Shown here: positions 1 through 15,900 of the stretch, piece by piece
Layout of the letters: every line of letters begins with the position of its first letter
Numbering within the stretch: position 1 is the first letter of the stretch
From: a virus
Taxonomy: Duplodnaviria; Heunggongvirae; Uroviricota; Caudoviricetes
Reading direction: 5' to 3' (one strand)
IMG/VR virus record: IMGVR_UViG_3300032287_000839
Coordinates: 45,794-109,793 of that record
Length of the DNA: 64,000 nucleotides
Program-made: the position numbers and the translations under genes
The notes under the pieces: generated by a model
Databases searched by the model: none
Seen by the model: only the letters and a program-made list of their open reading frames with translations
What the model was told of the DNA's origin: nothing

Positions 1-45
1 TGGTAGTAACACTACAACTATAAGAGTTAATATAAACTGTTTCAT
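1..45 (-). CDS. 5' end of a gene running off the left edge; begins MKQFILTLIVVVLLP (signal peptide or TM-like)
   Basis: The reverse complement of 1..45 is ATG AAA CAG TTT ... The ATG overlaps the TAA stop of the upstream gene by 1 nt (TAATG), the same coupling pattern used elsewhere in this operon. Confidence 0.3.
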   Translation of the reverse strand, partial: MKQFILTLIVVVLLP

Positions 46-758
46 TATTTAGTGAAGATTCCTTTCTTCACCATTCTATCCAAAATTCTAGCACAAGCTA
101 TATCCAAAGCCTTCTTTGTAGCAATAGATATGGTTGATTGATTAAATTTCACAGGATCTAGACTTGCATCTGATAATCCTGAGGTTTCTTTTGTTGTCTT
201 AGCTTCACCAAGACCACTAGCAGATATCACAGTGGCTGTTTCAGCATCTGTAAATCTCACCTGAAGACCTATTCTAGTTACCATCAATTGACTAGTTGCA
301 AGCTTAGAGCTCACAGTTTCATCTTCTGATACACTATAGTCATAGCATTCTATACTAACAAAATACTTAGCTAGTCTAATCTTTCCTCTTCCGTCCAGCT
401 TATCTTCAGAGATTCCAGACTGCGAAGCTTGGAATTGCTTGACCATTCTGTTCTTGATTTCTGTCTTATCTTCTGTAAACTTGAACCTATTGAGGTTTTC
501 AAGATATTCCATAGAGATATTGGCAACACCAAGACCCACTCTTTTTTCCTTAAGCTCTGGATACATTTCATACATTTCATCACTGATACCACATTTTAAT
601 ATTTGTATAGGGATTTGAGGTCCTTCATAATCTAAGAATTGACTGATATCAATAGCCTTCTCAAAGCTAGCTGTATATTTCTCAGTCTTTGTAGAAGCTA
701 ATTGGCTGTTTACTACTCCTGAGAATAGTAAACAACCTATAACAATTAAATATTTCAT
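45..758 (-). CDS. secreted protein or lipoprotein with an N-terminal signal peptide, function unknown
   Basis: 237-aa ORF. N-terminus MKYLIVIGCLLFSGVVNSQ is a typical Bacteroidota signal peptide. Its start is coupled to the upstream stop through a TAATG overlap. Confidence 0.6.
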   Translation of the reverse strand: MKYLIVIGCLLFSGVVNSQLASTKTEKYTASFEKAIDISQFLDYEGPQIPIQILKCGISDEMYEMYPELKEKRVGLGVANISMEYLENLNRFKFTEDKTEIKNRMVKQFQASQSGISEDKLDGRGKIRLAKYFVSIECYDYSVSEDETVSSKLATSQLMVTRIGLQVRFTDAETATVISASGLGEAKTTKETSGLSDASLDPVKFNQSTISIATKKALDIACARILDRMVKKGIFTK

Positions 759-1351
759 TAGTGTGTGTCTTTAATCTTACCACAATGGATACACTCATAG
801 TCACCATCATGATCCACATCAGCAAATACATGCTCACATTGTCTGTGTTCTTGATGTTCGAATTCTAACTTCTTAAGTTCGATTTCATGGTGATGTTGTT
901 CAGCTACCTTATCAGCTTCTGCTTTAACAGCATGATCCACCTTTGTTTGTTCAGCTGTTTTAATTGCAGCGTTAACAAATGCATCAGGGATAGTTGGACC
1001 AAACGGTTTATTAGTCTCTTTCATATCATTGGTGTGAGACATAGTTGTACCATCTTCTTCATCCATCTTCTGTACAAGCATCTTGTCTTTGTCTGTATCA
1101 GAGAACCAGTAGTCAATAATTTTACCATAGCTACCAATGAAGGCACCTAATAATAATAGTAATAACTCCTTCCATTCTCCTGCCATAACTAATCCATAGT
1201 TCATTGACATGAAGATTCCTGCTATGATAAAAATGAATCCTCCTAAAACTGCAGCTGTGATGTACCATCTTCTGGTCATCATTGATGCTAAGAGATCTCT
1301 AAAGCCTGCTGGTTTTGGTTCCTCAGTTGGTTTTGATTTAAATAAGTCCAT
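758..1351 (-). CDS. membrane protein with two predicted TM helices and a His/Cys-rich C-terminal metal-binding tail
   Basis: 197-aa ORF. Two hydrophobic segments. C-terminus is EQHHHEIE...HQEHRQCEHVFADVDHDGDYECIHCGKIKDTH. The start may instead be the internal MMTRRW at about 1282. Confidence 0.55.
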   Translation of the reverse strand: MDLFKSKPTEEPKPAGFRDLLASMMTRRWYITAAVLGGFIFIIAGIFMSMNYGLVMAGEWKELLLLLLGAFIGSYGKIIDYWFSDTDKDKMLVQKMDEEDGTTMSHTNDMKETNKPFGPTIPDAFVNAAIKTAEQTKVDHAVKAEADKVAEQHHHEIELKKLEFEHQEHRQCEHVFADVDHDGDYECIHCGKIKDTH

Positions 1352-1453
1352 ACGTTTGCGATTGTTTCTTGATTTGATTTTATTAGCTCAGCTTTCTTTA
1401 CACCAGATCTTCTAGATCTCTGAGCTTTTGGTTTTTTAGCTGCTGTTCCCATA

Positions 1454-1768
1454 TTACCACTGTGCTGGTTTTTCTTTAAACTCATCAGCTTCCTTCTTAG
1501 GTTTTGGGGCTGGTGCAGGTTTAGCTGGTTCTGTAGATTTCTCTTTAATAATAACTGTTTTACCACCACCTGCAGCTTGTTGCTGTTGTTGCTGTTGAGA
1601 GTTATTAATGATGATAGATGGTTGAGCAGCTGCAGGTTTTTCTTCCTCACTGCCACCTGTTAATTTGTTTGTAACAAATCCACCTACACCTAGTGTAACT
1701 GTGCTTACTAATGTAATGATAATTCCTTTGAAGGATTTACCAGTTGATTCTTCTTGCTCTTCTGCCAT
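1454..1768 (-). CDS. small single-pass membrane protein with a poly-Q stretch and a Pro/Lys-rich tail
   Basis: 104-aa ORF with one hydrophobic segment (IIITLVSTVTLGVGGFV), then QQQQQQQ and PAKPAPAPKPKK. Confidence 0.5.
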   Translation of the reverse strand: MAEEQEESTGKSFKGIIITLVSTVTLGVGGFVTNKLTGGSEEEKPAAAQPSIIINNSQQQQQQQAAGGGKTVIIKEKSTEPAKPAPAPKPKKEADEFKEKPAQW

Positions 1769-1773
1769 GATTA

Positions 1774-2145
1774 TTATTTTTTAATGGTTATATTACGTTT
1801 GTATTCTGTACCAAAAATATCAATAAGCACTACAGTGTAGTCACCATTGATATGATCTGAGTAGTCTAACTCCTTGATAACTAATTCTTTATCTGCCAAG
1901 ATTCCTGTAGATTCTACAACATCTCCTTTTAAGTTAATTAGTTGTAAAGAGTATTTAGATCCTACAGTAACTGATAGATTAGCTATCACCTTACCTGAAG
2001 ATACAGGAGGTTCTACACTATTTATTTTTGTTGAGGTTGATTGTTTACCTAGTTCAATAGTTGGTGTAGATACCACCTTTGAACAAGCAATCACTAATAT
2101 TATAATTAGTAAATATATTCCTATTAGGGTCTTTAATTCTTTCAT
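1774..2145 (-). CDS. small secreted protein made of a signal peptide plus a T9SS (Por secretion) C-terminal sorting domain, with almost no cargo
   Basis: 123-aa ORF. Signal peptide MKELKTLIGIYLLIIILVIACS. The C-terminal ~75 aa (NLSVTVGSKYSLQLINLKGDVV...LDYSDHINGDYTVVLIDIFGTEYKRNITIKK) match the T9SS CTD pattern v.vyd..G..v....ld.s....G.Y.v.v......kk.ikk. The stop/start overlaps the next gene (ATGA). Confidence 0.5.
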   Translation of the reverse strand: MKELKTLIGIYLLIIILVIACSKVVSTPTIELGKQSTSTKINSVEPPVSSGKVIANLSVTVGSKYSLQLINLKGDVVESTGILADKELVIKELDYSDHINGDYTVVLIDIFGTEYKRNITIKK

Positions 2146-3839
2146 TAGAAGTTATTATATCCTGTTAATTTAATTGTTGTTGTGTTTAAGTTGATTCCCA
2201 TCTGGTTACCAGACATATCTGATGCATCCATGTTAGCAGTCACCTTAATATATGAATTGATATCCAATCCACTTTGTAATGTAGAAAACACTAACTTGAA
2301 TGGTGTACCACCAAGATAAGGTGTCTTTACATCTTTGTCTACAGCTCCAAACTTCACTCTCCCTGGTGTAGCATTTGCAAACACTAACCATGTAGGTACG
2401 TCCACTGTAACAGATTCAAACTTCACTTTAGTTGCATCATATACAAACTCAAACTGTAGTCCTGATAAGCTGTCTTTTGTACTAACGTTAACTGGAACTG
2501 TAAACTGATCTCCTAGTACAGTGATGTTGTTTAAACTTACATCAACCACTGGATTAGGTTTACTTGTATTTACAGCTGCAGCTTTTACACTGTAAGACTG
2601 AATTGTTCCATCAGGTTTAACCACCTGTGAGCTGTGTGATCTATTAATGTCTCCAGGGATTAAGTATTTAAGTTTTAAATCCTGAGCAATAGTAGATGTC
2701 TTAAACAACACACCATATAAGTTAGCCTTCTTCCAATGCTCTGGAGTAAGTGTATCATATACACTAGCTTCTAACATAGGAATATTATATAGAGTTTGAC
2801 CAGCCATTGGTTTTACCACCGTGTCAATGTTAGTCACCTGAGCAAACAATGCTGTTACATCATTACCATCAAACACTTTGTTTTGTATAATGTCAGAAGC
2901 AATCCAGCTAGCACCAGACTTCATATTTACATTTATGTATGTTCTGTCTAAGTTCTGCTTAATGAATTCATTCTGAGCTGCAGTGTAATCACTTACAGTT
3001 ACAGCTTTATTTAAGTAGCTAGGAATACTATCACTAGGAATTGCAGCGTAAGCATAATACCATGTGTTAGGACTTAGCTCAGGGCCTAAGAAGAATGTAC
3101 CATCATTTGCTGGTACCACTTGAGCTTTTACAACCTTTGTAATTGTATCCACAATTATAATCTTAGGAACAATACTACTAACAGCAACCTGTCCATTAAT
3201 CAATGCATTAGCACTAGGAATAGGTGTAATCCAAGAGCTGTGAGGCTTAGGCATATGTACAGTGCGATATCCTGTATAGCTAGATCCATAAGATTCTGCA
3301 GCATTAAAATATACAGAGTCATATGCAAATCCTGCATCAACATTAACCACCTTAAATCTTAGATAAGCTAATTCACCATCTACAAGATCAGTAGCAGAAG
3401 CTGTGTTAATCCATATGCGATTGATAGCTTTAATACCTCCTTGTGAATAGTTATAATAAGCATTATTAAAGTTGGTTATACCATCTGTAGTTGTATTACT
3501 TGAGTTCTTTACAAATGTATATCCAGGATAATATTGATTCTGGAATGTAGCACTAGCCCCTTGTGGAAGAGCTGAGCCTTGAGATCCTGCTGTAGGGAAT
3601 ACAATATCAATAAGATTGATAGCTGTAATCTGGTGTTCAAAATCTAAATAAAAAGATCTTGCACTGGAATTATTATTCCTATATGCAAGAGCTAATTGTA
3701 CTGTGTCTCCTTTTGTAATCTTTCCACCACGAATGTTTACACTTTGTTCTGTTGGTACAAGTCTTAGTCCTGGTGTTTGAGCATAAGAAAATGTCACAAT
3801 ACTTTGAAAAATTGTGACAAGTAATAATAGTTTTTTCAT
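2145..3839 (-). CDS. large secreted protein with a signal peptide, function unknown
   Basis: 564-aa ORF. N-terminus MKKLLLLVTIFQSIVTFSYAQ. Contiguous with and translationally coupled to its neighbours. Confidence 0.65.
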   Translation of the reverse strand: MKKLLLLVTIFQSIVTFSYAQTPGLRLVPTEQSVNIRGGKITKGDTVQLALAYRNNNSSARSFYLDFEHQITAINLIDIVFPTAGSQGSALPQGASATFQNQYYPGYTFVKNSSNTTTDGITNFNNAYYNYSQGGIKAINRIWINTASATDLVDGELAYLRFKVVNVDAGFAYDSVYFNAAESYGSSYTGYRTVHMPKPHSSWITPIPSANALINGQVAVSSIVPKIIIVDTITKVVKAQVVPANDGTFFLGPELSPNTWYYAYAAIPSDSIPSYLNKAVTVSDYTAAQNEFIKQNLDRTYINVNMKSGASWIASDIIQNKVFDGNDVTALFAQVTNIDTVVKPMAGQTLYNIPMLEASVYDTLTPEHWKKANLYGVLFKTSTIAQDLKLKYLIPGDINRSHSSQVVKPDGTIQSYSVKAAAVNTSKPNPVVDVSLNNITVLGDQFTVPVNVSTKDSLSGLQFEFVYDATKVKFESVTVDVPTWLVFANATPGRVKFGAVDKDVKTPYLGGTPFKLVFSTLQSGLDINSYIKVTANMDASDMSGNQMGINLNTTTIKLTGYNNF

Positions 3840-6494: not shown

Positions 6495-6863
6495 TTAGTA
6501 GGGTTGATAGGACTTTTCCTCTATAAACTCAGACCCATACTTTATATTAATTTCTTTTTTAATATGTGCTCTTTTATCATTCAGTAAGTAAACACTTCTG
6601 GCTAGCTGAACAAAGTGATCATCAAATATCTTGTTTCTTTCACATTCTCTTAGTCTATCTTCTACACCCCAAAGCTTTTTATTTACCCAAAGCAACTCAT
6701 CTGTCATAGGATCGTGTAATATCTCAGGTTCAATCACTGTATTTAAATAGTTCTTCTCAGTAAAAACATTCTTAAGCTTATCTTTATCTGTTATATTTAA
6801 AGCTTTGATAGAAAGGATGGTCCATTTGTCCACCACTTCTCCAACACTAACCTCTATCTTCAT
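6495..6863 (-). CDS. hypothetical protein
   Basis: 122-aa ORF, transcribed divergently from the glycosyltransferase gene. No recognisable motif. Confidence 0.5.
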   Translation of the reverse strand: MKIEVSVGEVVDKWTILSIKALNITDKDKLKNVFTEKNYLNTVIEPEILHDPMTDELLWVNKKLWGVEDRLRECERNKIFDDHFVQLARSVYLLNDKRAHIKKEINIKYGSEFIEEKSYQPY

Positions 6864-6872
6864 AAAAATTTA

Positions 6873-6903
6873 TTGTATATTATCCACAAATATACTAACT
6901 TTG
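6873..6903 (+). promoter_or_regulatory. Bacteroidetes-type promoter for the glycosyltransferase gene (TTG, 20 nt, TAACTTTG)
   Basis: The plus strand reads TTATTGTATATTATCCACAAATATACTAACTTTG. The -7 element lies 18 nt upstream of the ATG at 6922. Confidence 0.4.
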
Positions 6904-6921
6904 TTTAAAATAATCAACACA

Positions 6922-8985
6922 ATGAACCAATTAAATATGAAAACTAAGGTGATGTACATAGCTCCTCACTTATCAACAGGAGGAATGCCTGCATTTTTAT
7001 TAAAGACTATTCAGGAATTAAAGGATAGTTTAGACATCTATGTAGTTGAGTATCAATGTCATAGCTTAGATTTTGTAGTTCAGCGTAATGCAATTATGGA
7101 GATTGTTGGAAACAACTTCACCACTCTGTATGAAAATAAGATGGAGCTATTTAATGTAATCAATGAATGGAAACCAGACATAATCCACATACAAGAACCT
7201 GCTGATAGATTTGATCAAGAGATGATGAGAGAGTTATATAAGGATGATAGAACATATAAACTTGTAGAAACCTTCCATGATGTAGCATTCAAACCTGAAG
7301 AGAAGATATTGTTGTCAGAAGCATATGCTTTCTGTACACCATATCATGTTGACATATTTGTTAATGATACATATAAACAGGTGATTGAATTTCCTATAGA
7401 GAATAAGCAACCAGGACTTATAGCTAAGATGGATGCTAAAGATAAGCTAGGGTTCAATAAGTTTAGAGCTAATGTACTTAATGTAGGGCTGTGGACTAAA
7501 GGTAAGAACCAGGGAGAAGGACTTGAGATAGCTAGAAAGCATCCTGATATGGATTTCCATTTTGTTGGTAACCAAGCTGGGAACTTCCAAGACTATTGGG
7601 AACCATTAATGAAAGACCTACCAGAGAATGTAAAGATATGGGGAGAGAGAAATGATGTAGATGAGTTTATGAAAGCTGCAGACATATTCATGTTTAACAG
7701 CACGTGGGAATGTAATCCATTAGTTCTTAGAGAAGCAATTGGATATGGGTTGCCTGTTGTAGCTAGAAACCTACCACAGTATGGAGACATGTTCACCAAC
7801 TATCTATTACCTATTGATACTGATCTAGAGCTGATTGACTACAGCAGTTACAATAGAAAGATGTATGACCTACCAGAGAATACATTTACTAAAGACTACA
7901 TAGAGTTCTACAGCCTTGTAACTAAGTTATCTACAAGAAAACAAGGAGTGGTGATAGCTCAGCACTTTGTAGACAATCCATTCCTAGAGATTAAAGGTGT
8001 GTCAGATAGCAACTTCAGAGTGGCATTCTTTGATGAGCAAGATAGATGTCATTATGAAAATACAGTTAGAGCTAATAGCTGGGTGAGATTGAATAGACAG
8101 TATTATACTAAGTGGACAGCTAAGGTGTGGAAAGATGATTTGCTTTTGTACACTAACACTTTAAACTTTGTAGATAAAACTGTGTTCATTGTAATCGATA
8201 GCAAAAGCTTAGGTGATACAATTGCTTGGGTTCCATATGCTCTAGAGTTCCAAAAGAAACATAATTGTAAGGTGGTTGTGTCCACTTTTTGGAATAAAAT
8301 ACTGGACTATCCTGAGCTAGAACTGGTAGAACCAGGAGCTACAGTGGAGTGTTATGCTTTATATAGAATAGGATGGTTTTGGAATGAGGCTAAAGAACCT
8401 GAGTTATGTAACACAATACCTTTACAAAAAGCAGCTAGTAATATACTAGGTCTTGAGTATACAGAAATAAAACCTCAACTTAAATATGAGTATAACTATC
8501 CTGCATCAAACGATCATCCTTACATAGCAATTGCTACCAACTCAACTATGGAATGTAAGTTCTGGACTAGAGAAGGATGGCAGGAAGTAATTAACTGGTT
8601 AAATAGTTTAGGATACTCAGTTATAAATGTATCTAAAGAGGATAATCCGTTTGCCAATTGTATAAAGATAGCTGATACATCTATAGAGAATACAATGAAT
8701 GTGATAGCAGGTGCTAAGCTGTTTATAGGATTGTCCAGTGGATTAAGCTGGTTAGCATGGGCTTTACATCAAAGAGTGGTGATGATTGCAAACTTCACAG
8801 AAGCTAATCATGAATTTAAATGTTACAGAGTGACTGATACAACTTCATGTAATAGCTGTTGGAACGATCCAACTATTAAGTTAGATCCACATTGGAACTG
8901 GTGTCCTAGGAATAAGGACTTTGAATGTCAGAGATTAATACCAGCAAGTATGGTAATGGATAAAATAAAAGAAGCAGGCATTTAG
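6922..8985 (+). CDS. two-domain glycosyltransferase: N-terminal GT4/GT1-like domain fused to a C-terminal GT9 heptosyltransferase-like (TibC/AAH 'BAHT'-like) domain
   Basis: N-domain motif FNSTWECNPLVLREAIGYGLPVVARN, matching the GT4 E..G..LEA.A.G.PVV pattern. C-domain motifs IGLSSGLSWLAWALHQRVVMIANFTE (GT9 nucleotide-sugar pocket-like) and the Cys cluster CYRVTDTTSCNSCWNDP...WNWCPRNKDFECQ, which resembles the iron-finger of autotransporter heptosyltransferases. It is the only plus-strand gene in the window. The true start is ATG 6922 (MNQLNMKTK), not 6805. Confidence 0.8.
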   Translation: MNQLNMKTKVMYIAPHLSTGGMPAFLLKTIQELKDSLDIYVVEYQCHSLDFVVQRNAIMEIVGNNFTTLYENKMELFNVINEWKPDIIHIQEPADRFDQEMMRELYKDDRTYKLVETFHDVAFKPEEKILLSEAYAFCTPYHVDIFVNDTYKQVIEFPIENKQPGLIAKMDAKDKLGFNKFRANVLNVGLWTKGKNQGEGLEIARKHPDMDFHFVGNQAGNFQDYWEPLMKDLPENVKIWGERNDVDEFMKAADIFMFNSTWECNPLVLREAIGYGLPVVARNLPQYGDMFTNYLLPIDTDLELIDYSSYNRKMYDLPENTFTKDYIEFYSLVTKLSTRKQGVVIAQHFVDNPFLEIKGVSDSNFRVAFFDEQDRCHYENTVRANSWVRLNRQYYTKWTAKVWKDDLLLYTNTLNFVDKTVFIVIDSKSLGDTIAWVPYALEFQKKHNCKVVVSTFWNKILDYPELELVEPGATVECYALYRIGWFWNEAKEPELCNTIPLQKAASNILGLEYTEIKPQLKYEYNYPASNDHPYIAIATNSTMECKFWTREGWQEVINWLNSLGYSVINVSKEDNPFANCIKIADTSIENTMNVIAGAKLFIGLSSGLSWLAWALHQRVVMIANFTEANHEFKCYRVTDTTSCNSCWNDPTIKLDPHWNWCPRNKDFECQRLIPASMVMDKIKEAGI

Positions 8986-9000
8986 CCTGCTTTCTTTTTA
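8971..9000. terminator. bidirectional rho-independent terminator between convergent genes
   Basis: GAAGCAGGC-ATTTA-GCCTGCTTC makes a 9-bp stem. A TTTCTTTTTAT run follows and an A-rich run precedes. The glycosyltransferase stop lies in the loop, and the minus-strand gene stop is at 8998. Confidence 0.6.
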
Positions 9001-9429
9001 TGGGTTATTAGAAACTTCTTTTTTTAGGAACTTCTCCAGTAGAACAGGATAATAATCTTCTGTTTCTATATTAAACAACTCCTCAATATCCAATTCAGGG
9101 ACTTCAATATTCTTTTCAATCTTTTCTAATTCAGACAATTTAACTCTCAATTCAGGAACATGTTCTTCTCTAATAAAGTATTGCCCATCTTTTTCTTCCC
9201 CTTTCCCTTCAGCAATCATTTCTTTAAATATTTCTAAACTACTTTCATCAAAAGCTTTCTTTTCATCAACAAGATTTTTATTAACTTGATTGTTTAAAAT
9301 GTATTTAACTTTAATAGATAACTTTTGTGAAAGTAACCCAGTATTACTTCTTTCTCCTGTTTGTTTGTTTATAACTCTTCCATTTAACTCATCAAACATT
9401 GTAGCAATTTCTGCCAGTGTTAGTTTCAT
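8998..9429 (-). CDS. hypothetical acidic protein (possible fiber assembly or chaperone role, from position only)
   Basis: 143-aa ORF with its own Bacteroidetes-type promoter upstream. Sits downstream of the fiber genes. Confidence 0.55.
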   Translation of the reverse strand: MKLTLAEIATMFDELNGRVINKQTGERSNTGLLSQKLSIKVKYILNNQVNKNLVDEKKAFDESSLEIFKEMIAEGKGEEKDGQYFIREEHVPELRVKLSELEKIEKNIEVPELDIEELFNIETEDYYPVLLEKFLKKEVSNNP

Positions 9430-9445
9430 ATAATTATATTTTGTT

Positions 9446-9477
9446 CAAAATTAGTTTACTTAATCTAATTTACCAAA
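9446..9477 (-). promoter_or_regulatory. Bacteroidetes-type promoter (TTTG, 20 nt, TAATTTTG)
   Basis: The minus strand reads ACATTTGGTAAATTAGATTAAGTAAACTAATTTTG. The -7 element lies 16 nt upstream of the ATG at 9429. Confidence 0.45.
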
Positions 9478-9480
9478 TGT

Positions 9481-9822
9481 TTATGGAACTAATGTTGTAG
9501 TTTCAGTTGTGGTAGTACTACTAGTTGTAGTGCTTGTGGTAACATCTCCTACGATAGTTAAGTTAAGCTGTGCTGCTATCCAATCCCAAGCATATTGATT
9601 TGTTTGGTAATCTTCATAAGCTTGACCTGTCATTGTAAGTTTACCTGAAGCTAATACATTTACTGATGGTAATGCTGGATATAAATTATAAACTATAGTT
9701 CCAATACCGTAATAAAAAACAGCTTGATTTAATAAGTTATCACTTATAACATAAGCGTTTAATCCATCTACTTGCACCTCTTGACCATCAGACCACACTG
9801 TTACTGGTTCAATTTGTTTCAT
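9481..9822 (-). CDS. small protein with a poly-Thr/Ser C-terminus, immediately downstream of the collagen-like fiber
   Basis: 113-aa ORF whose start overlaps the fiber stop. C-terminus VTTSTTTSSTTTTETTTLVP. Confidence 0.5.
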   Translation of the reverse strand: MKQIEPVTVWSDGQEVQVDGLNAYVISDNLLNQAVFYYGIGTIVYNLYPALPSVNVLASGKLTMTGQAYEDYQTNQYAWDWIAAQLNLTIVGDVTTSTTTSSTTTTETTTLVP

Positions 9823-9824
9823 TA

Positions 9825-12800
9825 TTAATTATTTATTAATTGTTTTATATTATTGATTTCTAATTGTTGATTTTTAATAATCTCCTGTTGTTCTTTCATT
9901 CCATTAACAACTACAGCCAATAATTCTGTTTGTGTAATAGCCAACATGTTGAAATTTTTATCTTCAATTATTAACTCTGGTATCAAATCTTGTAACTGCT
10001 GTGCAGAAAAACCTAAGTGAAAAGTTTTATCACCCTTTGATACATGATTATCTGGCAAATCATACTTAAACTTAATTGTATCCATTTGCAATAACTCATT
10101 AAGTCCATAAGTTAATTTAGATACTTCCTTCTTATATCTCATATCTGAAACAGAACCGTAAGTAGCATATAGTGTGTCCATGTAAAACAAGCTACCACCA
10201 CCTATACCGCCATAAATATCTAACCACTGACTCCAATACCCATACCACAAATACTTATATCTACCTTGAAAATATTCTTGCCCAGCCCATTGTAAATTAC
10301 CAGGCGAGTAAATAGATCCAAATGTTACACCATCTGTTGTTCTTACATACTGATCCATATTAGCTGCATAAGGATATGCGTTAGTATTCATGTAATAAAC
10401 CCATCCTCCAAAAGAACCACCTGAAACATTTCTTGTAGCTAATCTATTTGCATTATCTTCCCATCCCCAGGCTACTTGTGTTCCCCAAAAACTTCCACCA
10501 TTAGTGTGCCTAAAGTTTTGTTGAATCCACCAAGATCCTCCTGGTCCATTTGTTCCATTTGCACCAACGTCACCACTATATCTCGCAGTTCCTGCAGGTG
10601 TGTTTGTAAAATCATTGTTCCAAGATCCTGTAGAGCCTGTTTGCTGAATATAATTATTACTATTTAAATATGTAGCACTAGATGCAGCACTCACAGTTTG
10701 AGAACCAATGTTAGCAGTTGTAATAAATTGGAACCAACTATTCCAGCTTCCCACATCGCCATTTCTTGTTCTATAAGAAATTGCAACCCCGCCACCACTA
10801 TATGCAGCATTTAATTGTAAATCATAACTACCACCTGCACTAAATCTAGCTATAGGGCCTGTCCAAGGAGCATTTACAGAATAAGTAAATCCTGTACTGT
10901 TAGTGTCCATAGTATTAGCATCAAGTGTAAAACCTTGATAATACATAATATTAGCTGGCTTACTAGAAACATTACCCCATGCTACACTACCAGCACTACC
11001 TGTAATACTTATACCCCATGTACCAGAAGCAGCTCCTCCAGTTAATGTAGGAGAATAAGAGTTATAATTTGCTGCATTTAAAACTGTATTACCACCGTAT
11101 GCTAATGTTGAACCATTATCAGTTAATGCACTATTACCTATGGTAGTTGCACTTGTAAATTTAGTCATTGTGTTTGTGGTACCTGATACAGCTACAGATG
11201 TACCACTTGTACCTGTTGTTCCGCTAGAACCACTTGTTCCGCTAACTCCAGAAGTACCATTCACTCCTGATGTGCCATTAATTCCAGAGGTACCGTTTAC
11301 TCCTGATGTACCAGAGGTTCCATTAGCTCCTGATGTTCCATTGATTCCTGACGTACCACTAGACCCTGATGTACCAGTTGTTCCTGAAGTTCCATTTATT
11401 CCACTAGTTCCAGCAGTTCCACTTGTACCTGTAGTACCTGATGTTCCTCCTGTAGAAGATGTTCCTCCTGTTCCGTCTGTTCCACTACTACCAGATGTGC
11501 CACCAGTCCCATCAGTTCCAGATGAGCCACTAGTTCCACCAGTGCCTGAAGTTCCTGTAGTACCACTTGTTCCTGGGGTACCACTTGTCCCAGCAGATCC
11601 TGAGGTTCCAGGTGTACCACTAGTACCAGATGTACCTGATTGAGATACAATAGCTATAAATAAAGGATGGTTGTTAGCAAAGTTGGTTGTACCAGTTCCT
11701 GCTGAAGATATCAATGTTACAGGAATAGTCCAATAGTTAGTGCTATTGGTTGGTGTACCTGTTATATCCCAAATTTGATTATTGGCAGAATCATTTTGAT
11801 CTTGTATAGTGATTTGTTGAGTCTCTTGTAATAATGCTAAGAAAATGTCAATATCAATATCATTATCAGTTGTATGATTGATGTTTATTGATGTAGAACT
11901 TATTTGTGTAGCATTATCCCAAATAATATATCCAATACCAGGATCTCCTGATTGTGATGTAGTTTTAGCTTGATAGAAGAATAAGTTGTTTGATATACCA
12001 TTTACACCTGACGTACCACCAGTTCCACTTGTACCTGTGGTTCCAGAAGTGCCATCAGTACCTGAAGTTCCAGTGGTTCCACTTGTTCCTCCTGTGCTAC
12101 TAGTTCCTGATGTACCTGTGGTTCCTGATGTACCATCTGTCCCACTTGTACCACTTGTTCCTCCTGTACCATCAGTGCCTGATGTACCATTAGAACCATC
12201 TGTTCCTGAGGTTCCTGAGGTGCCTGTTGTACCACTGGTGCCACTAGTACCGTCTATACCTGATGTTCCACTAGTTCCATCTATACCACTAGTTCCATTA
12301 CTACCATTAGTTCCACTCGTTCCAGCAGAACCAGTAGTTCCACTTGTACTTGATGTTCCTGAAGATCCTGAACTACCGTTAGAACCTGATGTTCCAGTTG
12401 TGCCTGATGTTCCACTTGTTCCATTAGAACCGCTTATACCAGAGCTACCGCTTGTACCTCTAGTTCCACTAGTTCCGCTTGTCCCACCTGAACCACTAGT
12501 ACCACGAGTCCCACTAGATCCAGATGTGCCTGCAGAGCCTGTTGATCCTGAGGTACCATTTGATCCATGAGTTCCACGTACACCAGAAGAGCCTGAAGAA
12601 CCACTAGTGCCAGAGCTACCAGTTAATCCAGAACTTCCTGAGCTACCACTAGTTCCATTAATTCCAGATGTCCCAGAGGTGCCAGATGTTCCTGAAGTAC
12701 CGTTCACCACAGCAAGTCTAGCATCAATTTTTTCTAATGCTGTCTGTATGCTATCATTAGTATTGATACCTGTATATATAAGGTCAGCACCTTCGTAAAA

Positions 12801-12857
12801 TACGCAAGTGCTATTAAGTATAATTGGACAAGGTTCTGCAGAACAAGTGATGTTCAT
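9825..12857 (-). CDS. collagen-like tail fiber with a C-terminal S74-type intramolecular chaperone (self-cleaving) domain
   Basis: Two long G-X-Y blocks (GTSGTSGTSG...). The C-terminus has the SVSDMRYKKEV motif (Ser/Lys dyad pattern SD.R.K) followed by a coiled-coil tail. The N-terminus carries the conserved fiber-anchor motif GINTNDSIQTALEKIDARL. Confidence 0.85.
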   Translation of the reverse strand: MNITCSAEPCPIILNSTCVFYEGADLIYTGINTNDSIQTALEKIDARLAVVNGTSGTSGTSGTSGINGTSGSSGSSGLTGSSGTSGSSGSSGVRGTHGSNGTSGSTGSAGTSGSSGTRGTSGSGGTSGTSGTRGTSGSSGISGSNGTSGTSGTTGTSGSNGSSGSSGTSSTSGTTGSAGTSGTNGSNGTSGIDGTSGTSGIDGTSGTSGTTGTSGTSGTDGSNGTSGTDGTGGTSGTSGTDGTSGTTGTSGTSSTGGTSGTTGTSGTDGTSGTTGTSGTGGTSGVNGISNNLFFYQAKTTSQSGDPGIGYIIWDNATQISSTSININHTTDNDIDIDIFLALLQETQQITIQDQNDSANNQIWDITGTPTNSTNYWTIPVTLISSAGTGTTNFANNHPLFIAIVSQSGTSGTSGTPGTSGSAGTSGTPGTSGTTGTSGTGGTSGSSGTDGTGGTSGSSGTDGTGGTSSTGGTSGTTGTSGTAGTSGINGTSGTTGTSGSSGTSGINGTSGANGTSGTSGVNGTSGINGTSGVNGTSGVSGTSGSSGTTGTSGTSVAVSGTTNTMTKFTSATTIGNSALTDNGSTLAYGGNTVLNAANYNSYSPTLTGGAASGTWGISITGSAGSVAWGNVSSKPANIMYYQGFTLDANTMDTNSTGFTYSVNAPWTGPIARFSAGGSYDLQLNAAYSGGGVAISYRTRNGDVGSWNSWFQFITTANIGSQTVSAASSATYLNSNNYIQQTGSTGSWNNDFTNTPAGTARYSGDVGANGTNGPGGSWWIQQNFRHTNGGSFWGTQVAWGWEDNANRLATRNVSGGSFGGWVYYMNTNAYPYAANMDQYVRTTDGVTFGSIYSPGNLQWAGQEYFQGRYKYLWYGYWSQWLDIYGGIGGGSLFYMDTLYATYGSVSDMRYKKEVSKLTYGLNELLQMDTIKFKYDLPDNHVSKGDKTFHLGFSAQQLQDLIPELIIEDKNFNMLAITQTELLAVVVNGMKEQQEIIKNQQLEINNIKQLINN
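11195..11660. repeat. collagen-like coding tandem repeat, block 2 (9-nt G-T/S-S units)
   Basis: Encodes (GTS/GSS/GTT)n. Its antisense reads as PV-rich pseudo-ORFs. Confidence 0.8.
12005..12695. repeat. collagen-like coding tandem repeat, block 1
   Basis: Encodes about 230 aa of G-X-Y triplets. Antisense ORFs 11986..12570 and 12607..12798 are artefacts of the repeat. Confidence 0.8.
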
Positions 12858-12927: not shown

Positions 12928-12960
12928 TTTACAAAAATAGTTAAAATTATTTAATTTAAA

Positions 12961-12999: not shown

Positions 13000-15900
13000 T
13001 TACTTACCATATCCAGCTTGAGATTGTGCTTTAATTCCTAATTCTTTAGCCATCTCTGGAAAGAACATTGGTAAATATGCTCCTATTTGAGATCCTATAG
13101 GGAAAGACTTCATTGCATATTTAAGTACGAAGTTTTTCTTAAGAGCTTTCTCATCACCTTCGTATAAATAGAACAGTTCTTTACCACCGTTCACAACTAC
13201 CTTTCTCATATTTTCTATTAGTCCTACAGCAGGGAATATACCTTTTGATGTAAGACTTAGTATACTAGTTGGATCATAGAAGTAGGTAATCTCATCTTTA
13301 AACTTATCTACAGCTTTCATTAAATACTTATACTTATTTCTAACTGCTGGATCTTCTTTATCATCAGGAGCAAATGCTTTAAGTCCCATGGCAAGAGCCC
13401 ACATACTAGCAAAGAACATTACGTCTAACAACTGAGATTTGACGTTTTGATTAACCAAGTTTAAGAATTCTCCCTCAGTCATCTCAAGATCTTTTCCTGT
13501 ATCAGCTTTATAATCTGCTGCTTTTTTCTCGTGTAAAGTTCTCATTTGAGCAACCCACTTATCACCATTACCTCTAATAGCACTTTGTAAACTATCTAAT
13601 GATCCTAAGAAGTCACTTGAAACCACTCTATACATCATACGCATTCTTCCCCACTCATAAGCATCAGAAGCTGAGTTGTATTTTAAGTTACCTAAACGTA
13701 CATCCACAAGTCCAGGAATCCAGTTCTTAAATAACATCATCGATGCACCATATATAGTTTGGTTAATAGGACGTATATCATCTGGTCCTAAAGATCCTAA
13801 CGCATTCTTAGTTAATGCTTGTACGTTTCTTCTTAATTTAACTACTGATTCTGATTTTCTTTCTACACCAGGTATAACTAATTTACCATCAACTAGTTCT
13901 GCTGATTTCATTACACTCTTCTCTTCTATAAGATCTTTAACGTCTTTTTCAAACTTCTCATTTCTAGCTTTTCTTTCTTCATTCGTACCAGCAAACATAT
14001 TACTATATTCATCTGTATTCCTTAAATACTCTCTAGCATTTACCACTTCTCCATTCTGAACAATAGAGTTATCTAAGAAGCTATAGAAGTTAGTTGTCTG
14101 TACATTCAAATCAGAACTTCTCATAAGAATCATCAAGAAGTCTTGAATTCTTTCTTGAGTTAACTTATTGACAGACAATAGTTTAGCTATTTCTGCATTA
14201 TAGTTTTCGTTAAGAGGAAGGAAATATTCTAATGCAGCAATGTATTTCTTTTTATCTCCACCAATCATCTTACCTGGAAGTATCCAAGCTTGATTGCGTA
14301 AGTAGTCTGCTTTAGTAAAATACTTACCAGAGTTAATAATTGATTGAGCATTACCACCAAAGTAGTTAGATGCTGCAGATAAGAAGTTTAATCCTAAAGC
14401 AGTGATTTGAAATTGTGTATTTAAATTACTAACTACCTTATTGAAACTAATTTGTTTTCCTTCTAAGTTTTCTGGGAATATATTACGTCCAATCTTTTTA
14501 TTAATTTTCTCTCCATAGTTACCAAACTTACCTAATATCTGGTCAAAACTATCACTAGTTACATATTTCTGTCCATAGATGATAGCTTTCATCATGTCTT
14601 CATAAAGCTTAGTGTTCTCACTATTGTCTGGTGTATATACTAAATCACCTGCTGCATCTCTTTGAGTTTTACCAAAAACAGACGTAGCAATAGCTTTCTT
14701 GTTTCTTTCTGTATTTAATATACCTATAGCTTGTTCTTCTAACTCACTTAAGTATTTATACTTAATAGCCATCTCATTGTACAAAGACATGGTTCTAAAC
14801 AAATCAGTGCTCACCTCTCCATCAATCTCTCTTGTAAAGTATCTAGGGATGGTATTTATAGGTTGTCCTGTAATAGGATTAAATTTACCAAATCCTATAT
14901 CACCCTCATCAACAGTGATGCTTCTAATAAATTGCTCACCTACAGATATTTTTCCACCAAATACAATCTTCTCCATTATTCCTTTTCTAACAAAAGGAAG
15001 GAATGTTCTAACATCTCCTTTATTAATATATCCAATCTCAGCATACTCTTTATTCTTTTCTTGAATGTATTCATAAAAAGCTTTAGCAGCTGGAACACTT
15101 TGTAATTTCTTCCATTCAGCAGTTTCCAAATCAGCTTTAGGATGTTTATTGATTAAAATATATTGGAACCAACCAGCACCTGTTTTATTAGAAATGTCAT
15201 ATTTTCTTCTCATTTGAGAAATCTCATCAGCTTCTGCTTCTAAATTCTCTACATCAGTTCCCACTCTACTAGACATCTTGTTCTCAATTCTTAATTGCTC
15301 TTCTGCAATCTTTTCTTCAAGAGCAGCCTTGTAAGCTTCAACATCTACATTATCTCTAATCCAATCTACATCCTTCTCATTAATTTTTTGTTTTAATGTA
15401 CTGAAGAATTTAGGATCGTATTGATCAATAAGTTCGTTACTATCTTTTTTCTTTAATATATCAAAGTAGTTTTTACCTGACAAGTTTTGACTTTTAGCCC
15501 ATACATCAAAGTCTTTCTTAAGTTTTTCTAGTCTTCTTGTCTCATCAAGAGTATCAAATCCAGCATAAGCAAAAGCCTTATTAGCCTTTCTATATAATGT
15601 TTGAATAGCTGCAGTTTGAAATACACGAGTGGAACCAAACCATTTACCTATACCTTTAATAACCTTCTCAGGAGAAAGTAAATTTTTAATGTCTACACTA
15701 GCAGAAGTTACTGTTTCGTTAAACTCATCAGATAACTTTCTTAATTGTGACTGTAGCTTTCTAGCCTCTTTTGCAGTGCGTGTTAACTCTGTTTCAAGCT
15801 TTTTATCTTCCTCAGATAAATCTCCACCAAACAAGAAATCAAGTTCTGTATCTAAGTTTGTATAGATGGTGATAGTTTCTTCAGCATTATTAATCTCTTC

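What the first reader, a model, noticed from the sequence alone, without database searches (positions are those of the whole stretch)
6873..9000. Phage-encoded bifunctional glycosyltransferase on the opposite strand, next to fibers rich in poly-Thr/Ser and collagen repeats: candidate virion glycosylation module
The only plus-strand gene in 64 kb encodes a fusion of two glycosyltransferase domains. The N-domain is GT4-like (NPLVLREAIGYGLPVV). The C-domain resembles GT9 heptosyltransferases, with a nucleotide-sugar motif and a CxxC...C...C cluster like the iron-finger of the autotransporter O-heptosyltransferases TibC/AAH. That family glycosylates Ser residues in repetitive passenger domains. 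The gene has its own Bacteroidetes-type promoter and a bidirectional terminator, and it sits between the lysis cassette and the fiber genes. Nearby fibers offer plausible acceptor tracts: long poly-Thr/Ser linkers in at least six structural proteins and a 1010-aa (G-T-S)n collagen-like fiber. The alternative explanation is modification of a host surface polysaccharide (serotype conversion).
Basis: partly seen in the sequence, partly recalled or inferred. Interest (0 to 1): 0.78.

Follow-up and report, generated by a model that had tools for sequence, protein, structure and literature searches.

The report
Phage glycosyltransferase for collagen-like fibre
An uncultured phage of Bacteroidota carries a two-domain sugar-adding enzyme related to the one pathogenic E. 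coli use to sugar-coat their adhesins, and comparison with many unrelated phages indicates it most likely decorates the phage's own serine/threonine-rich, proline-free collagen-like tail fibre.

Summary
Window 6922-8985 (+) is the only genuine plus-strand gene in 64 kb. It encodes a 687-aa fusion of a GT4 domain with an intact EX7E motif and a TibC/AAH-type (BAHT) protein O-glycosyltransferase domain. The BAHT domain scores 233 bits against TIGR04414 (cut-off 200), and TibC is the top solved-structure match (TM 0.76). The catalytic Asp, the Thr/Lys/Trp donor contacts and all four iron-finger Cys are conserved. LPS heptosyltransferase models score far below their cut-offs.

The new evidence is comparative. 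In phage contigs of 20-735 kb that share little else, BAHT genes sit next to collagen-like proteins whose Gly-X-Y repeats are G-[T/S]-S, with about 0% Pro. This holds in 20 of 33 non-redundant loci, at a median gap of about 0.8 kb. Conversely, 24% of loci seeded on (GTS)n hold a BAHT gene, whereas only 4 of 50,697 GenBank phage records do.

The cultured Microcystis phage Mel-JY01 shows the same pairing, and its collagen gene is unannotated. In relatives, GT4 and BAHT are separate neighbouring genes.

The phage subfamily lacks TibC's dodecamer thumb and its adenine-contacting Arg, so the oligomeric state and the donor sugar are open. The poly-Thr linkers have only weak comparative support as acceptors. 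Nothing has been tested biochemically.

The parts
6896..6903 (+). TAACTTTG, candidate Bacteroidota-type -7 promoter box for the glycosyltransferase gene
   Evidence: Read directly from the sequence. It lies 19 nt before ATG 6922. It is one of two back-to-back matches in the 58-bp divergent spacer, but the motif is not enriched window-wide. This is a consensus match only.
6887..6894 (-). TATATTTG, candidate -7 box for the divergent DUF6165 gene
   Evidence: It lies about 24 nt upstream of the start codon at 6863.
6922..8985 (+). Gene for the 687-aa bifunctional GT4-BAHT glycosyltransferase (alternative start 6937)
6946..7923 (+). GT4 (retaining GT-B) domain, aa 9-334, with the EX7E motif at 7708-7734 (E263...E271)
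   Evidence: Pfam PF00534 scores 48.1 bits against a cut-off of 26.4. E263 and E271 are invariant in 36 sequences. Foldseek matches BshA, MshA, PimA and WaaG.
7948..8163 (+). Beta-barrel domain, aa 343-414, equivalent to the TibC N-terminal barrel
   Evidence: The AF2 model is all-beta over residues 343-414. The TibC alignment covers 370 of about 384 target residues.
8179..8982 (+). BAHT catalytic domain, aa 420-687: catalytic Asp432 (8215-8217), T542, K546, W610, and the iron-finger Cys643/646/661/669 (8848-8928)
   Evidence: TIGR04414 scores 233.2 bits. Residues were mapped onto TibC D110/T226/K230/W305/C339/C342/C358/C370.
8971..8993 (.). Bidirectional intrinsic terminator shared with the convergent fibre operon
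   Evidence: a 9-bp stem plus T-run on the + strand and an 8-bp stem plus T-run on the - strand.
9825..12857 (-). 1010-aa collagen-like tail fibre, the proposed acceptor. Its G-[T/S]-S blocks are aa 53-289 (nt 11991-12701) and aa 408-554 (nt 11196-11636). It ends in a C-terminal Peptidase_S74 chaperone domain.
   Evidence: Pfam Collagen 7.6e-43 and Peptidase_S74 2.5e-8. X is 88% S/T and Y is 70% S/T. All three Gly-X-Y blocks together (399 aa, including a 15-aa block at aa 762-776) hold 103 Ser, 103 Thr and 3 Pro.
9481..9822 (-). 113-aa protein encoded right after the fibre gene, with a C-terminal poly-Thr/Ser tail (aa 95-110). It is a possible second acceptor or a fibre accessory.
   Evidence: Homologues beside the GT keep a poly-Thr tail in L001, L005 and L008. 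The family occurs in 8 of 50 locus groups.
8998..9429 (-). 143-aa protein of unknown function, convergent with the GT gene and a conserved neighbour within the lineage
   Evidence: It has no Pfam or PHROG family.
6495..6863 (-). DUF6165 four-helix-bundle protein, divergent from the GT gene and a conserved neighbour of phage BAHT genes
   Evidence: PF19662 6.4e-10. It has the same position in L001-L011. It also lies beside a 31%-identical BAHT in L048/L049. AF2 pLDDT is 88 and there is no PDB fold match.

Best explanation
The gene encodes a cytoplasmic, two-active-site protein O-glycosyltransferase that modifies the phage's own collagen-like tail fibre before or during its assembly in the infected cell.

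The C-terminal BAHT-type domain has a TibC-like fold, with a catalytic Asp432 and a four-Cys metal finger. I infer that it puts the first sugar on Ser/Thr hydroxyls of the Gly-Thr/Ser-Ser repeats. The N-terminal retaining GT4 domain is inferred to add a second sugar, giving a short glycan on up to about 200 sites per chain.

These repeats have almost no proline and few charged residues. The glycans are therefore proposed to supply the hydration and stability that hydroxyproline or salt bridges give in other collagens, and to form the chemical surface of the fibre.

Shown: domain identity, conserved catalytic residues, fold, gene neighbourhood and cross-phage co-occurrence. Inferred: the acceptor, the order of the two transfers, the sugars and the structural role.
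For: (1) Family assignment. TIGR04414 scores 233 bits against a cut-off of 200. TibC scores 3e-44 by sequence. TibC is the top Foldseek hit at E 1.6e-22, TM 0.76 over 370 columns. D110, T226, K230, W305 and the four Cys are conserved in 50-51 of 52 non-redundant phage BAHT domains. BAHTs are protein Ser O-glycosyltransferases that hyperglycosylate long repetitive passenger domains (PMC4358343); that their genes sit next to the substrate gene is my own knowledge.

(2) Neighbourhood. The only collagen-like gene in the 64-kb window lies 840 bp from the GT gene.

(3) Co-occurrence. Of 33 non-redundant GT-seeded IMG/VR locus groups (BAHT identity 30-67%, contigs 20-321 kb), 20 carry a G-[ST]-[ST] collagen protein at a median gap of about 0.8 kb. 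The arrangements differ: convergent, immediately downstream, or immediately upstream. No other neighbour family is found in more than 13 of 50 locus groups.

(4) Reciprocal test. Of 79 loci seeded only on (GTS)n, 19 hold a BAHT gene within 10 kb, and 6 of 13 among long, strongly GTS loci. By contrast, only 4 of 50,697 GenBank phage records match the BAHT domain.

(5) GenBank cases. Of the three distinct GenBank phages with a BAHT, two have an adjacent GTS-type collagen. One is Microcystis phage Mel-JY01, with an unannotated ORF of more than 1016 aa. The other is the 735-kb phage LR756501.

(6) Which domain carries the link. BAHT-only proteins keep the collagen neighbour. The GT4-only hits L060/L066 have none and L042 has only a non-GTS collagen.

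(7) Coupling of the two domains. GT4 and BAHT are separate neighbouring genes in 115-kb relatives and in LR756501, so the fusion marks one pathway.

(8) Rarity in bacteria. The fusion is almost absent from 185,579 bacterial species genomes. There were three hits, all on short contigs of Bacteroidota MAGs.

(9) Established chemistry. (Gly-Pro-Thr)10 is a random coil until its Thr residues are galactosylated. BclA and Riftia collagens are Thr-glycosylated (PMC11923368, PMC8968730). The repeats here have a median Pro content of 0.00 and 4% charged residues.
Against: There is no biochemical or proteomic evidence.

Thirteen of the 33 GT-seeded groups show no G-[ST]-[ST] collagen in the DNA fetched. 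Some of these are short contigs and some have repeats with lower S/T content. In addition, 76% of (GTS)n-seeded loci have no BAHT within 10 kb. The 115-kb relatives carry a BAHT island but show no collagen repeats in the 20 kb fetched, and LR756504 has none.

The loci are not phylogenetically independent samples. The MCP-seeded 'control' comes from the same lineage.

The known BAHT acceptor is a beta-helix, not a collagen chain. The phage subfamily lacks TibC's beta-hairpin thumb and the adenine-contacting Arg286, so the mode of action and the donor may differ.

The gene has its own promoter on the opposite strand, a layout also typical of host-modifying 'moron' genes.
Confidence: 0.6

Rival explanations
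1. Host-surface modification. The enzyme alters a host envelope glycan (LPS core, O-antigen or capsule precursor at the inner face of the membrane) or a host surface protein during infection. This would block superinfection or keep progeny from sticking to debris.
For: GT4 and GT9 are the classic LPS-core families, with weak hits to WaaG, RfaC and heptosyltransferases. The gene lies in a variable island beside host-recognition genes, has its own promoter and sits on the opposite strand. GTs in the fibre regions of aquatic myophages have been interpreted in this way (PMC7029224). Other phage BAHT loci carry sugar-modifying genes (DegT, PglD-like, FkbM, sulfotransferases) that would also fit polysaccharide work.
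Against: The C-domain passes the BAHT model and fails the LPS heptosyltransferase models by a wide margin. TibC is the top structure. The fusion is nearly absent from bacterial genomes. This reading does not predict the specific pairing with G-[T/S]-S collagen genes across unrelated phages. In L147 the fibre's C-terminal half is 94% identical while the GT is only 52% identical, so the GT does not track the receptor-binding end. No integrase or lysogeny function appears in the window; it is a structural and lysis region.
Confidence: 0.2
2. The main acceptors are the poly-Thr/Ser linker tracts of several other virion proteins, as the first reader also proposed, rather than the collagen repeats.
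For: Five virion-module proteins carry S/T runs of 8-25 residues. The 113-aa protein next to the fibre keeps its poly-Thr tail in relatives. Mycobacteriophage glycans are reported at the C-termini of capsid and tail-tube subunits (Freeman 2023, as cited in PMC12619734).
Against: Across the GT-seeded loci, S/T runs near the BAHT gene appear only in the window's own lineage and a few others, whereas collagen repeats recur widely. Such linkers are common in Bacteroidota and their phages without any dedicated GT (my own knowledge). This reading is not exclusive of the best explanation.
Confidence: 0.1
3. Phage DNA glycosylation, meaning sugar transfer to hydroxymethylated bases for anti-restriction.
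For: Phage GT-B enzymes can glycosylate DNA (Pyle 2024, as cited in PMC12619734). Only 64 kb of a genome likely to be about 115 kb is visible.
Against: No base-hypermodification genes are in the window. The BAHT family, the iron finger and the beta-barrel all point to protein acceptors. The gene lies in the fibre/lysis region, not the replication module.
Confidence: 0.03

Closest known systems
TibC / AAH bacterial autotransporter heptosyltransferases (BAHT family, TIGR04414; PDB 4RAP, 4RB4)
   Same: The sequence scores above the family cut-off. It has the same fold, including the N-terminal beta-barrel. The catalytic Asp and the Thr/Lys/Trp donor contacts are conserved. Ser replaces Pro300, as in AAH. 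The four-Cys iron finger is present. The gene sits next to a gene for a very long, repetitive, Ser-rich surface fibre.
   Different: It is phage-encoded and there is no autotransporter. It is fused to a GT4 domain. The beta-hairpin thumb (F265/V266) that builds the TibC dodecamer is deleted. The adenine-contacting Arg286 is an invariant Thr. The proposed acceptor is a collagen-like Gly-X-Y chain, not a beta-helix.
Mycobacteriophage virion glycosylation (Freeman et al. 2023, known here only through PMC12619734)
   Same: Phage-encoded glycosyltransferases decorate the phage's own virion proteins inside the host.
   Different: The hosts are Actinobacteria. The acceptors are the C-termini of capsid and tail-tube subunits. 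No BAHT domain or collagen-like acceptor is reported.
Glycosylated collagen-like proteins: Bacillus BclA, C. difficile BclA1, Riftia cuticle collagen (PMC8968730, PMC11923368)
   Same: These are Gly-X-Y repeats rich in Thr that are O-glycosylated. Glycosylation substitutes for hydroxyproline in stabilising or hydrating the triple helix.
   Different: Those repeats are Gly-Pro-Thr and so contain proline. They are spore or animal proteins, not virion fibres, and they use different enzymes.
LPS heptosyltransferases WaaC/WaaF (GT9)
   Same: They share the GT-B superfamily and a Pfam Glyco_transf_9 hit.
   Different: Scores are 32 bits or less against cut-offs of 170-437. WaaC/WaaF lack the beta-barrel and the iron finger, and they act on lipid-linked acceptors.
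Giant-virus collagen modification (Mimivirus L230; my own knowledge)
   Same: A virus encodes enzymes that glycosylate its own collagen-like fibre proteins.
   Different: It is a eukaryotic virus. The linkage is hydroxylysine-linked glucose and the enzyme family is unrelated.

Membership tests
BAHT (TibC/AAH, TIGR04414) | Score at or above the curated cut-off of the family model | tested here: met
   233.2 bits against a cut-off of 200, E 4.3e-69, aa 361-684
BAHT (TibC/AAH, TIGR04414) | TibC-like protomer fold: N-terminal beta-barrel plus a two-lobed catalytic domain | tested here: met
   The AF2 model (pLDDT 78.7) matches 4rap/4rb4 at E 1.6e-22, TM 0.76 normalised to TibC, over 370 columns
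BAHT (TibC/AAH, TIGR04414) | Four-cysteine iron finger (TibC C339, C342, C358, C370) | tested here: met
   C643, C646, C661 and C669 align with the TibC ligands. They are invariant in 36 close homologues and in 50 of 52 diverse phage homologues. Iron binding itself cannot be tested here.
BAHT (TibC/AAH, TIGR04414) | Catalytic base Asp110 and donor contacts Thr226, Lys230, Trp305 | tested here: met
   They correspond to D432, T542, K546 and W610. W610 is His in 6 of the 36 close homologues.
BAHT (TibC/AAH, TIGR04414) | Arg286 contact to adenine N1 (specificity for ADP-activated sugar) | tested here: not met
   The aligned residue is Thr591, invariant in 36 homologues. Arg occurs in only 6 of 52 phage domains.
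BAHT (TibC/AAH, TIGR04414) | Beta-hairpin thumb (Phe265/Val266) that mediates dodecamer assembly | tested here: not met
   There is a deletion of about 10 residues. F265 and V266 fall in gaps in 49-50 of 52 phage domains. The oligomeric state itself cannot be tested here.
BAHT (TibC/AAH, TIGR04414) | Acceptor is an autotransporter passenger encoded next to the enzyme | tested here: not met
   The window has no autotransporter. The neighbours are phage fibre, lysis and DUF6165 genes.
BAHT (TibC/AAH, TIGR04414) | Transfers heptose from ADP-heptose to Ser | not testable with these tools
   This needs an enzyme assay. No heptose-pathway family was among the 25 most frequent families in the neighbours of phage BAHT genes.
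GT4 retaining glycosyltransferases | Pfam Glycos_transf_1 above the gathering score, an EX7E motif, and a GT-B fold | tested here: met
   PF00534 scores 48.1 bits against 26.4. E263 and E271 are invariant. Foldseek matches BshA, MshA, PimA and WaaG at E 1e-10 to 1e-8.
LPS core heptosyltransferases (WaaC/WaaF/WaaQ, GT9) | Score at or above the curated cut-off of the equivalog models | tested here: not met
   TIGR02193 scores 32.1 against 185.3, RfaC 18.1 against 437, and TIGR02201 16.7 against 170.2.
Phage virion-glycosylation systems | Glycan demonstrably attached to virion proteins by the phage-encoded GT | not testable with these tools
   Only genomic association is available.
Collagen-like phage tail fibre (the proposed acceptor, 9825-12857) | Long uninterrupted Gly-X-Y repeats plus a C-terminal intramolecular chaperone domain | tested here: met
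   PF01391 7.6e-43 in four stretches and PF13884 2.5e-8. The repeat blocks are aa 53-289 and 408-554.

The most novel reading that the evidence does not exclude
A widespread, previously unrecognised class of phage 'glyco-collagen' fibres. In this reading, proline-free (Gly-Thr/Ser-Ser)n tail fibres fold or function only after dense O-glycosylation by a thumb-less, phage-specific branch of the TibC/AAH family. That branch would work together with GT4 and variable accessory enzymes (methyl-, sulfo- and amino-sugar). The resulting glycan coat, rather than the peptide, would be the evolving host-recognition or defence-evasion surface in many abundant freshwater and marine phages, from 40-kb genomes up to 735-kb huge phages.
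Probability: 0.45. Interest if true: 0.8.

Novelty: new variant of a known kind. Interest (0 to 1): 0.68.

Why it matters
Virion glycosylation in phages has been shown only for mycobacteriophages. BAHT enzymes are known only as virulence-factor modifiers of autotransporters in proteobacterial pathogens.

If this reading is right, three things follow. First, the BAHT family extends to a new acceptor class (collagen-like chains) and a new biological setting: very abundant uncultured aquatic phages, with more than 3,500 homologous protein clusters and a capsid gene 95-99% identical in more than 599 IMG/VR contigs. Second, it explains how collagen repeats with no proline and almost no charge could form stable fibres. 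Third, it offers an alternative to the usual annotation of such genes in tail-fibre regions as 'host LPS modification'.

It also names a cultured system, Microcystis phage Mel-JY01, in which the idea can be tested directly. It bears on whether collagen glycosylation happens before or after triple-helix folding, a question stated as open in PMC11923368.

Tried and rejected
(1) Presence/absence test. I searched IMG/VR with the 143-aa neighbour to find relatives without the GT. Only two loci came back and both carry a GT, so the test was not possible.

(2) MCP-seeded loci as a negative control. None of 80 has a BAHT, but they belong to the same lineage, where the GT lies about 48 kb away. Twenty-three of the 80 carry GTS-type collagens of their own. 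This is not an independent control.

(3) Bacteroidota promoter motif. TAnnTTTG is not enriched in the window (87 found, 84.7 expected). Only its placement in intergenic spacers is suggestive.

(4) DUF6165 function. The AF2 model is a confident four-helix bundle, but there is no significant PDB match (best E 0.76). The literature holds nothing.

(5) Bacterial genome context. Only three short MAG contigs were found. The scan used two peptide patterns, so its sensitivity is limited.

(6) PHROGs has no family for the BAHT domain. In GenBank phages, DNA similarity is limited to a 59-bp stretch in two huge-phage records.

(7) The primary paper on mycobacteriophage glycosylation (PMC10527164) is not held in the library. 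No paper on Mel-JY01 was found.

(8) Heptose as the sugar. I looked for heptose-pathway genes among 150 neighbours of phage BAHT genes. None was among the 25 most frequent families, and there was one transketolase hit. With Arg286 also lost, I do not assert heptose.

(9) Literature searches for TibC or heptosyltransferase together with phage or collagen returned nothing relevant.
Full report
**1. The observation**

The + strand ORF 6805-8985 exists. It is the only + strand ORF in the 64-kb window that does not lie inside a longer minus-strand ORF. The probable start is ATG 6922 (687 aa). Homologues begin at the position of ATG 6937.

The window is the structural and lysis half of a tailed-phage genome. 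It holds a large terminase (62242-63828), portal (59663-62242), major head protein (56141-57694), giant virion proteins, a collagen-like fibre, and a GH19 endolysin with small membrane proteins.

The gene ends in a hairpin with T-runs on both strands (8971-8993). A TAACTTTG box lies 19 nt upstream of ATG 6922. It is back-to-back with a TATATTTG box that faces the divergent DUF6165 gene. The motif is not enriched in the window as a whole (87 found, 84.7 expected), so the promoter call is a consensus match and no more.

S/T runs of 8 or more residues occur in five virion-module proteins besides the collagen fibre.

**2. What the protein is**

Pfam finds a GT4 domain (Glycos_transf_1, 1.2e-12) and a GT9 domain (6.3e-11). 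NCBIfam places aa 361-684 in TIGR04414, 'autotransporter strand-loop-strand O-heptosyltransferase' (Aah/TibC). The score is 233.2 bits against a curated cut-off of 200. The LPS heptosyltransferase models reach only 17-32 bits against cut-offs of 170-437.

TibC is the only strong PDB sequence match (3.3e-44). An AlphaFold2 model (pLDDT 78.7) shows three parts: a GT-B domain (aa 9-334), an all-beta barrel (343-414) and a second two-lobed domain (420-687).

Foldseek ranks all TibC chains first (E 1.6e-22, TM 0.76 normalised to TibC, 370 aligned columns, so the barrel is included). Retaining GT4 enzymes follow: BshA, MshA, PimA and WaaG.

I mapped the residues described for TibC (PMC4358343):
- The catalytic base Asp110 corresponds to D432.
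- The phosphate contacts Thr226 and Lys230 correspond to T542 and K546.
- Trp305 corresponds to W610.
- The iron ligands C339/C342/C358/C370 correspond to C643/C646/C661/C669.
- Pro300 is Ser, as in AAH.

All of these but W610 are invariant among 36 close homologues; W610 is His in 6 of them. They are present in 50-51 of 52 non-redundant phage BAHT domains. The GT4 EX7E motif (E263...E271) is intact and invariant.

Two TibC features are missing. Arg286, which contacts adenine N1, is an invariant Thr; Arg is kept in only 6 of 52 phage domains. The beta-hairpin thumb (Phe265/Val266), which joins TibC dimers into the dodecamer, is deleted in 49-50 of 52.

So the protein is a genuine but distinct BAHT-family member fused to a GT4 enzyme. 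It has no signal peptide or membrane segment (sequence) and should act in the cytoplasm.

**3. Relatives and gene context**

The fusion is abundant in metagenomes. There are 3,574 clusters at E <= 1e-5 among the candidates scored, and almost all of the 120 best carry both domains.

Relatives at 67-83% identity keep the same layout: DUF6165 (divergent), the GT, a 143-aa gene, a 113-aa gene and a Peptidase_S74 fibre (convergent).

The phage lineage is very common. Its capsid gene is 95-99% identical in more than 599 IMG/VR contigs, with genomes up to about 115 kb. It is uncultured: the best capsid matches among isolates are 26% (Leptolyngbya phage Lbo-JY46) and 21% (Flavobacterium FpV phages).

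Only three bacterial assemblies out of 185,579 species hold the fusion. All three hits are on short contigs of Bacteroidota MAGs (Sediminibacterium, Chitinophaga, Lutibacter). This fits a Bacteroidota host and a phage-specific gene.

The GT locus is a variable island:
- In L147 the flanking genes are 86-94% identical but the GT only 52%.
- Close relatives add an N-terminal ~280-aa DxD-containing domain and a SAM methyltransferase. These occur either fused (970-1146 aa proteins) or as a separate 448-aa gene.
- In 115-kb relatives the island holds five genes: GT9, GT4-X (884 aa), a 224-aa gene, GT4, and a stand-alone 356-aa BAHT that Pfam does not recognise.

GT4 and BAHT therefore occur both as neighbours and as a fusion, which argues that they act in one pathway.

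**4. The acceptor: comparative evidence**

I fetched 59 IMG/VR loci that encode relatives of the GT and looked for repetitive proteins near them. The recurrent neighbour is a collagen-like protein whose Gly-X-Y repeats are G-[T/S]-S. X is typically 75-99% S/T (50-65% in a few), and Y is about 50-97% Ser, 70-97% in most.

After collapsing loci with more than 85% identical BAHT domains, 20 of 33 groups carry such a protein in the DNA fetched. The median gap is about 0.8 kb. Several of the remaining 13 are short contigs or have repeats just under my thresholds.

The pairing occurs in different arrangements: convergent as in the window, collagen gene 30-60 bp downstream on the same strand, or collagen gene immediately upstream. 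It occurs on contigs from 20 to 321 kb and with BAHT identities down to 30%. No other gene family is shared by more than 13 of 50 locus groups. So the pair is what these loci have in common.

The link is to the BAHT domain. BAHT-only proteins keep the collagen neighbour. Of the GT4-only hits, L060/L066 have no collagen neighbour and L042 has only a collagen with low S/T content.

I then ran the reciprocal test with 79 loci seeded only on a synthetic (GTS)n peptide. Nineteen (24%) contain a BAHT gene within 10 kb. The figure is 6 of 13 when the repeats are strongly GTS-type and at least 18 kb was available. Within this set, BAHT-positive loci have more Thr at X (0.66 against 0.49, p = 3.5e-4, not corrected for relatedness).

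For scale, only 4 of 50,697 GenBank phage records match the BAHT domain at all. Those four represent three distinct phages:
- Microcystis phage Mel-JY01. Its + strand at 2-3052 is an open reading frame of more than 1016 aa of (G-T/S-S)n. GenBank does not annotate it and instead lists opposite-strand 'PxxP' ORFs. It is followed by a Ser-rich 'structural protein' and a 1226-aa FkbM-BAHT fusion.
- The 735-kb phage LR756501. It has a 699-aa GTS-type collagen, a GT4-containing gene and a BAHT gene side by side.
- LR756504. It has a lone BAHT and no collagen within 10 kb.

In the window, the only collagen-like protein in 64 kb lies 840 bp from the GT gene.

**5. How it most likely works**

BAHT enzymes O-glycosylate many Ser residues in long repetitive fibrous substrates (PMC4358343). 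Their genes sit beside the substrate gene (my own knowledge). By analogy, and given section 4, the best explanation is that the BAHT domain glycosylates Ser/Thr of the fibre's Gly-X-Y blocks (aa 53-289 and 408-554).

The fibre's Gly-X-Y blocks (399 aa counting a short third block at aa 762-776) hold 103 Ser, 103 Thr, 3 Pro and about a dozen charged residues. The GT4 domain is inferred to extend the glycan. Accessory GTs, methyltransferases, sulfotransferases and amino-sugar enzymes in other phages would elaborate it.

These repeats lack both of the usual stabilisers of collagen triple helices. Viral collagen-like proteins are normally rich in KGD/KGE salt-bridge triplets. (Gly-Pro-Thr)10 is a random coil until its Thr residues are galactosylated. 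BclA and Riftia collagens are Thr-glycosylated (PMC11923368, PMC8968730). A structural role for the glycan is therefore plausible, but it is an inference.

The thumb is lost, so the enzyme is unlikely to form the TibC ring; a dimer through the iron finger is my guess. The donor nucleotide-sugar cannot be named, because Arg286 is lost and no heptose-pathway genes were seen among the neighbours.

**6. Rivals**

Host-surface modification is the usual reading of GTs in phage fibre regions (PMC7029224). It is not excluded. The island has its own promoter, sits on the opposite strand, and in other phages contains polysaccharide-type enzymes.

That reading does not, however, predict a protein-O-GT family, the near absence of the fusion from bacterial genomes, or the specific pairing with G-[T/S]-S collagen genes. 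The GT also does not co-vary with the fibre's C-terminal, presumably receptor-binding, end.

Near BAHT genes they recur only in this lineage and a few others. DNA glycosylation has nothing in its favour here.

**7. Limits**

All evidence for the acceptor is guilt by association. The loci are related to unknown degrees, and flanks were limited to 10 kb. Thirteen of 33 GT-seeded groups and 76% of (GTS)n-seeded loci do not show the partner in the DNA fetched. My intended negative control turned out to belong to the same lineage.

**8. Novelty and verdict**

JGI's pipeline already labels many of these proteins 'autotransporter strand-loop-strand O-heptosyltransferase', so the homology itself is not new. 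I found no paper that links BAHT enzymes to phages or to collagen-like fibres.

I rate the finding a new variant of a known kind: a thumb-less, phage-specific BAHT branch, usually coupled to GT4, whose probable acceptor is a proline-free collagen-like tail fibre. Confidence in that mechanism is about 0.6 and interest is 0.68.

Noticed in passing
window 6495-6863 (-): A DUF6165 protein is divergently transcribed from the GT gene. It is 80-89% conserved in more than 120 metagenomic clusters, including contigs of about 115 kb. It also lies next to a 31%-identical BAHT gene in jumbo-phage contigs L048/L049. AF2 gives a confident four-helix bundle (pLDDT 88), but no solved structure matches (best E 0.76) and no literature exists. 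It is a conserved partner of phage BAHT genes with unknown function.
   Followed up: partly
L231 (GenBank PP395634.1, Microcystis phage Mel-JY01) 2-3052 (+): An uninterrupted ORF of more than 1016 aa made of (G-T/S-S)n collagen-like repeats is not annotated. The record instead lists CDS 1-651 and 739-2298 on the opposite strand, whose 'PLVPEVP' repeats are the mirror image of the Gly-X-Y coding strand. The ORF runs off the start of the linear record.
   Followed up: yes
L232 3629-9824 (115-kb relative of the window phage): In most close relatives the island beside DUF6165 holds five genes: a GT9-like gene (326 aa), an 884-aa protein whose first 300 aa match the window's GT4 domain, a 224-aa GT2-like gene, another GT4 (340 aa), and a stand-alone 356-aa BAHT that Pfam misses. 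A 2OG-Fe(II) oxygenase follows. The window's single fused gene is the compact version.
   Followed up: partly
P0002/P0004 (81-83% identical to the window protein), L001 8461-9807: An extra ~280-aa N-terminal domain with a DxD motif looks like a GT-A fold but has no Pfam hit. In 1120-aa forms a SAM methyltransferase is fused to the GT4-BAHT core. In L001 the same two domains form a separate 448-aa gene upstream. The window protein lacks them.
   Followed up: partly
L064 2467-3084, L232 3020-3628 and other phage BAHT loci: Prolyl-hydroxylase-like 2OG-Fe(II) oxygenases (PF13640) recur next to BAHT and collagen genes, yet the collagen repeats contain essentially no proline. Their substrate is unexplained.
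   Followed up: no
window 56141-57694 (-): The major head protein is 95-99% identical in more than 599 IMG/VR contigs, with genomes up to about 115 kb. The best match among cultured phages is 26% (Leptolyngbya phage Lbo-JY46). This is a very abundant, uncultured lineage, and the window covers only its structural and lysis half.
   Followed up: partly
window 17928-29354 (-) and 13000-17928 (-): Two giant ORFs of 3808 aa and 1642 aa lie downstream of the fibre genes. The 1642-aa protein has an exonuclease-like stretch (phrog_298, 4e-9). The giant homologue in L005 carries a NADAR domain. Their roles were not examined.
   Followed up: no
window 40535-46027, 49641-50300, 50574-51725, 52758-53897, 9481-9822 (all -): Poly-Thr/Ser runs of 8-25 residues occur in five virion-module proteins. 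The 1830-aa structural protein has five of them. It is unknown whether they are plain linkers or further glycosylation sites.
   Followed up: partly
IMG/VR loci L149-L227 without a BAHT gene: Many phage loci with (G-x-S)n collagen-like proteins lack a BAHT gene. Several of these have GT2 or GT4 genes, and Laminin_G_3 proteins are frequent. Other glycosyltransferase families may serve similar fibres.
   Followed up: partly
window 2145-3839 (-): A 564-aa protein next to the lysis genes has a weak cohesin-domain hit (PF00963, 5e-6).
   Followed up: no
window 9446-9453 (-) and 12932-12939 (-): TAnnTTTG boxes lie 17 nt upstream of the 143-aa gene and 75 nt upstream of the fibre gene. The fibre operon and the 143-aa gene may therefore have separate promoters.
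   Followed up: no
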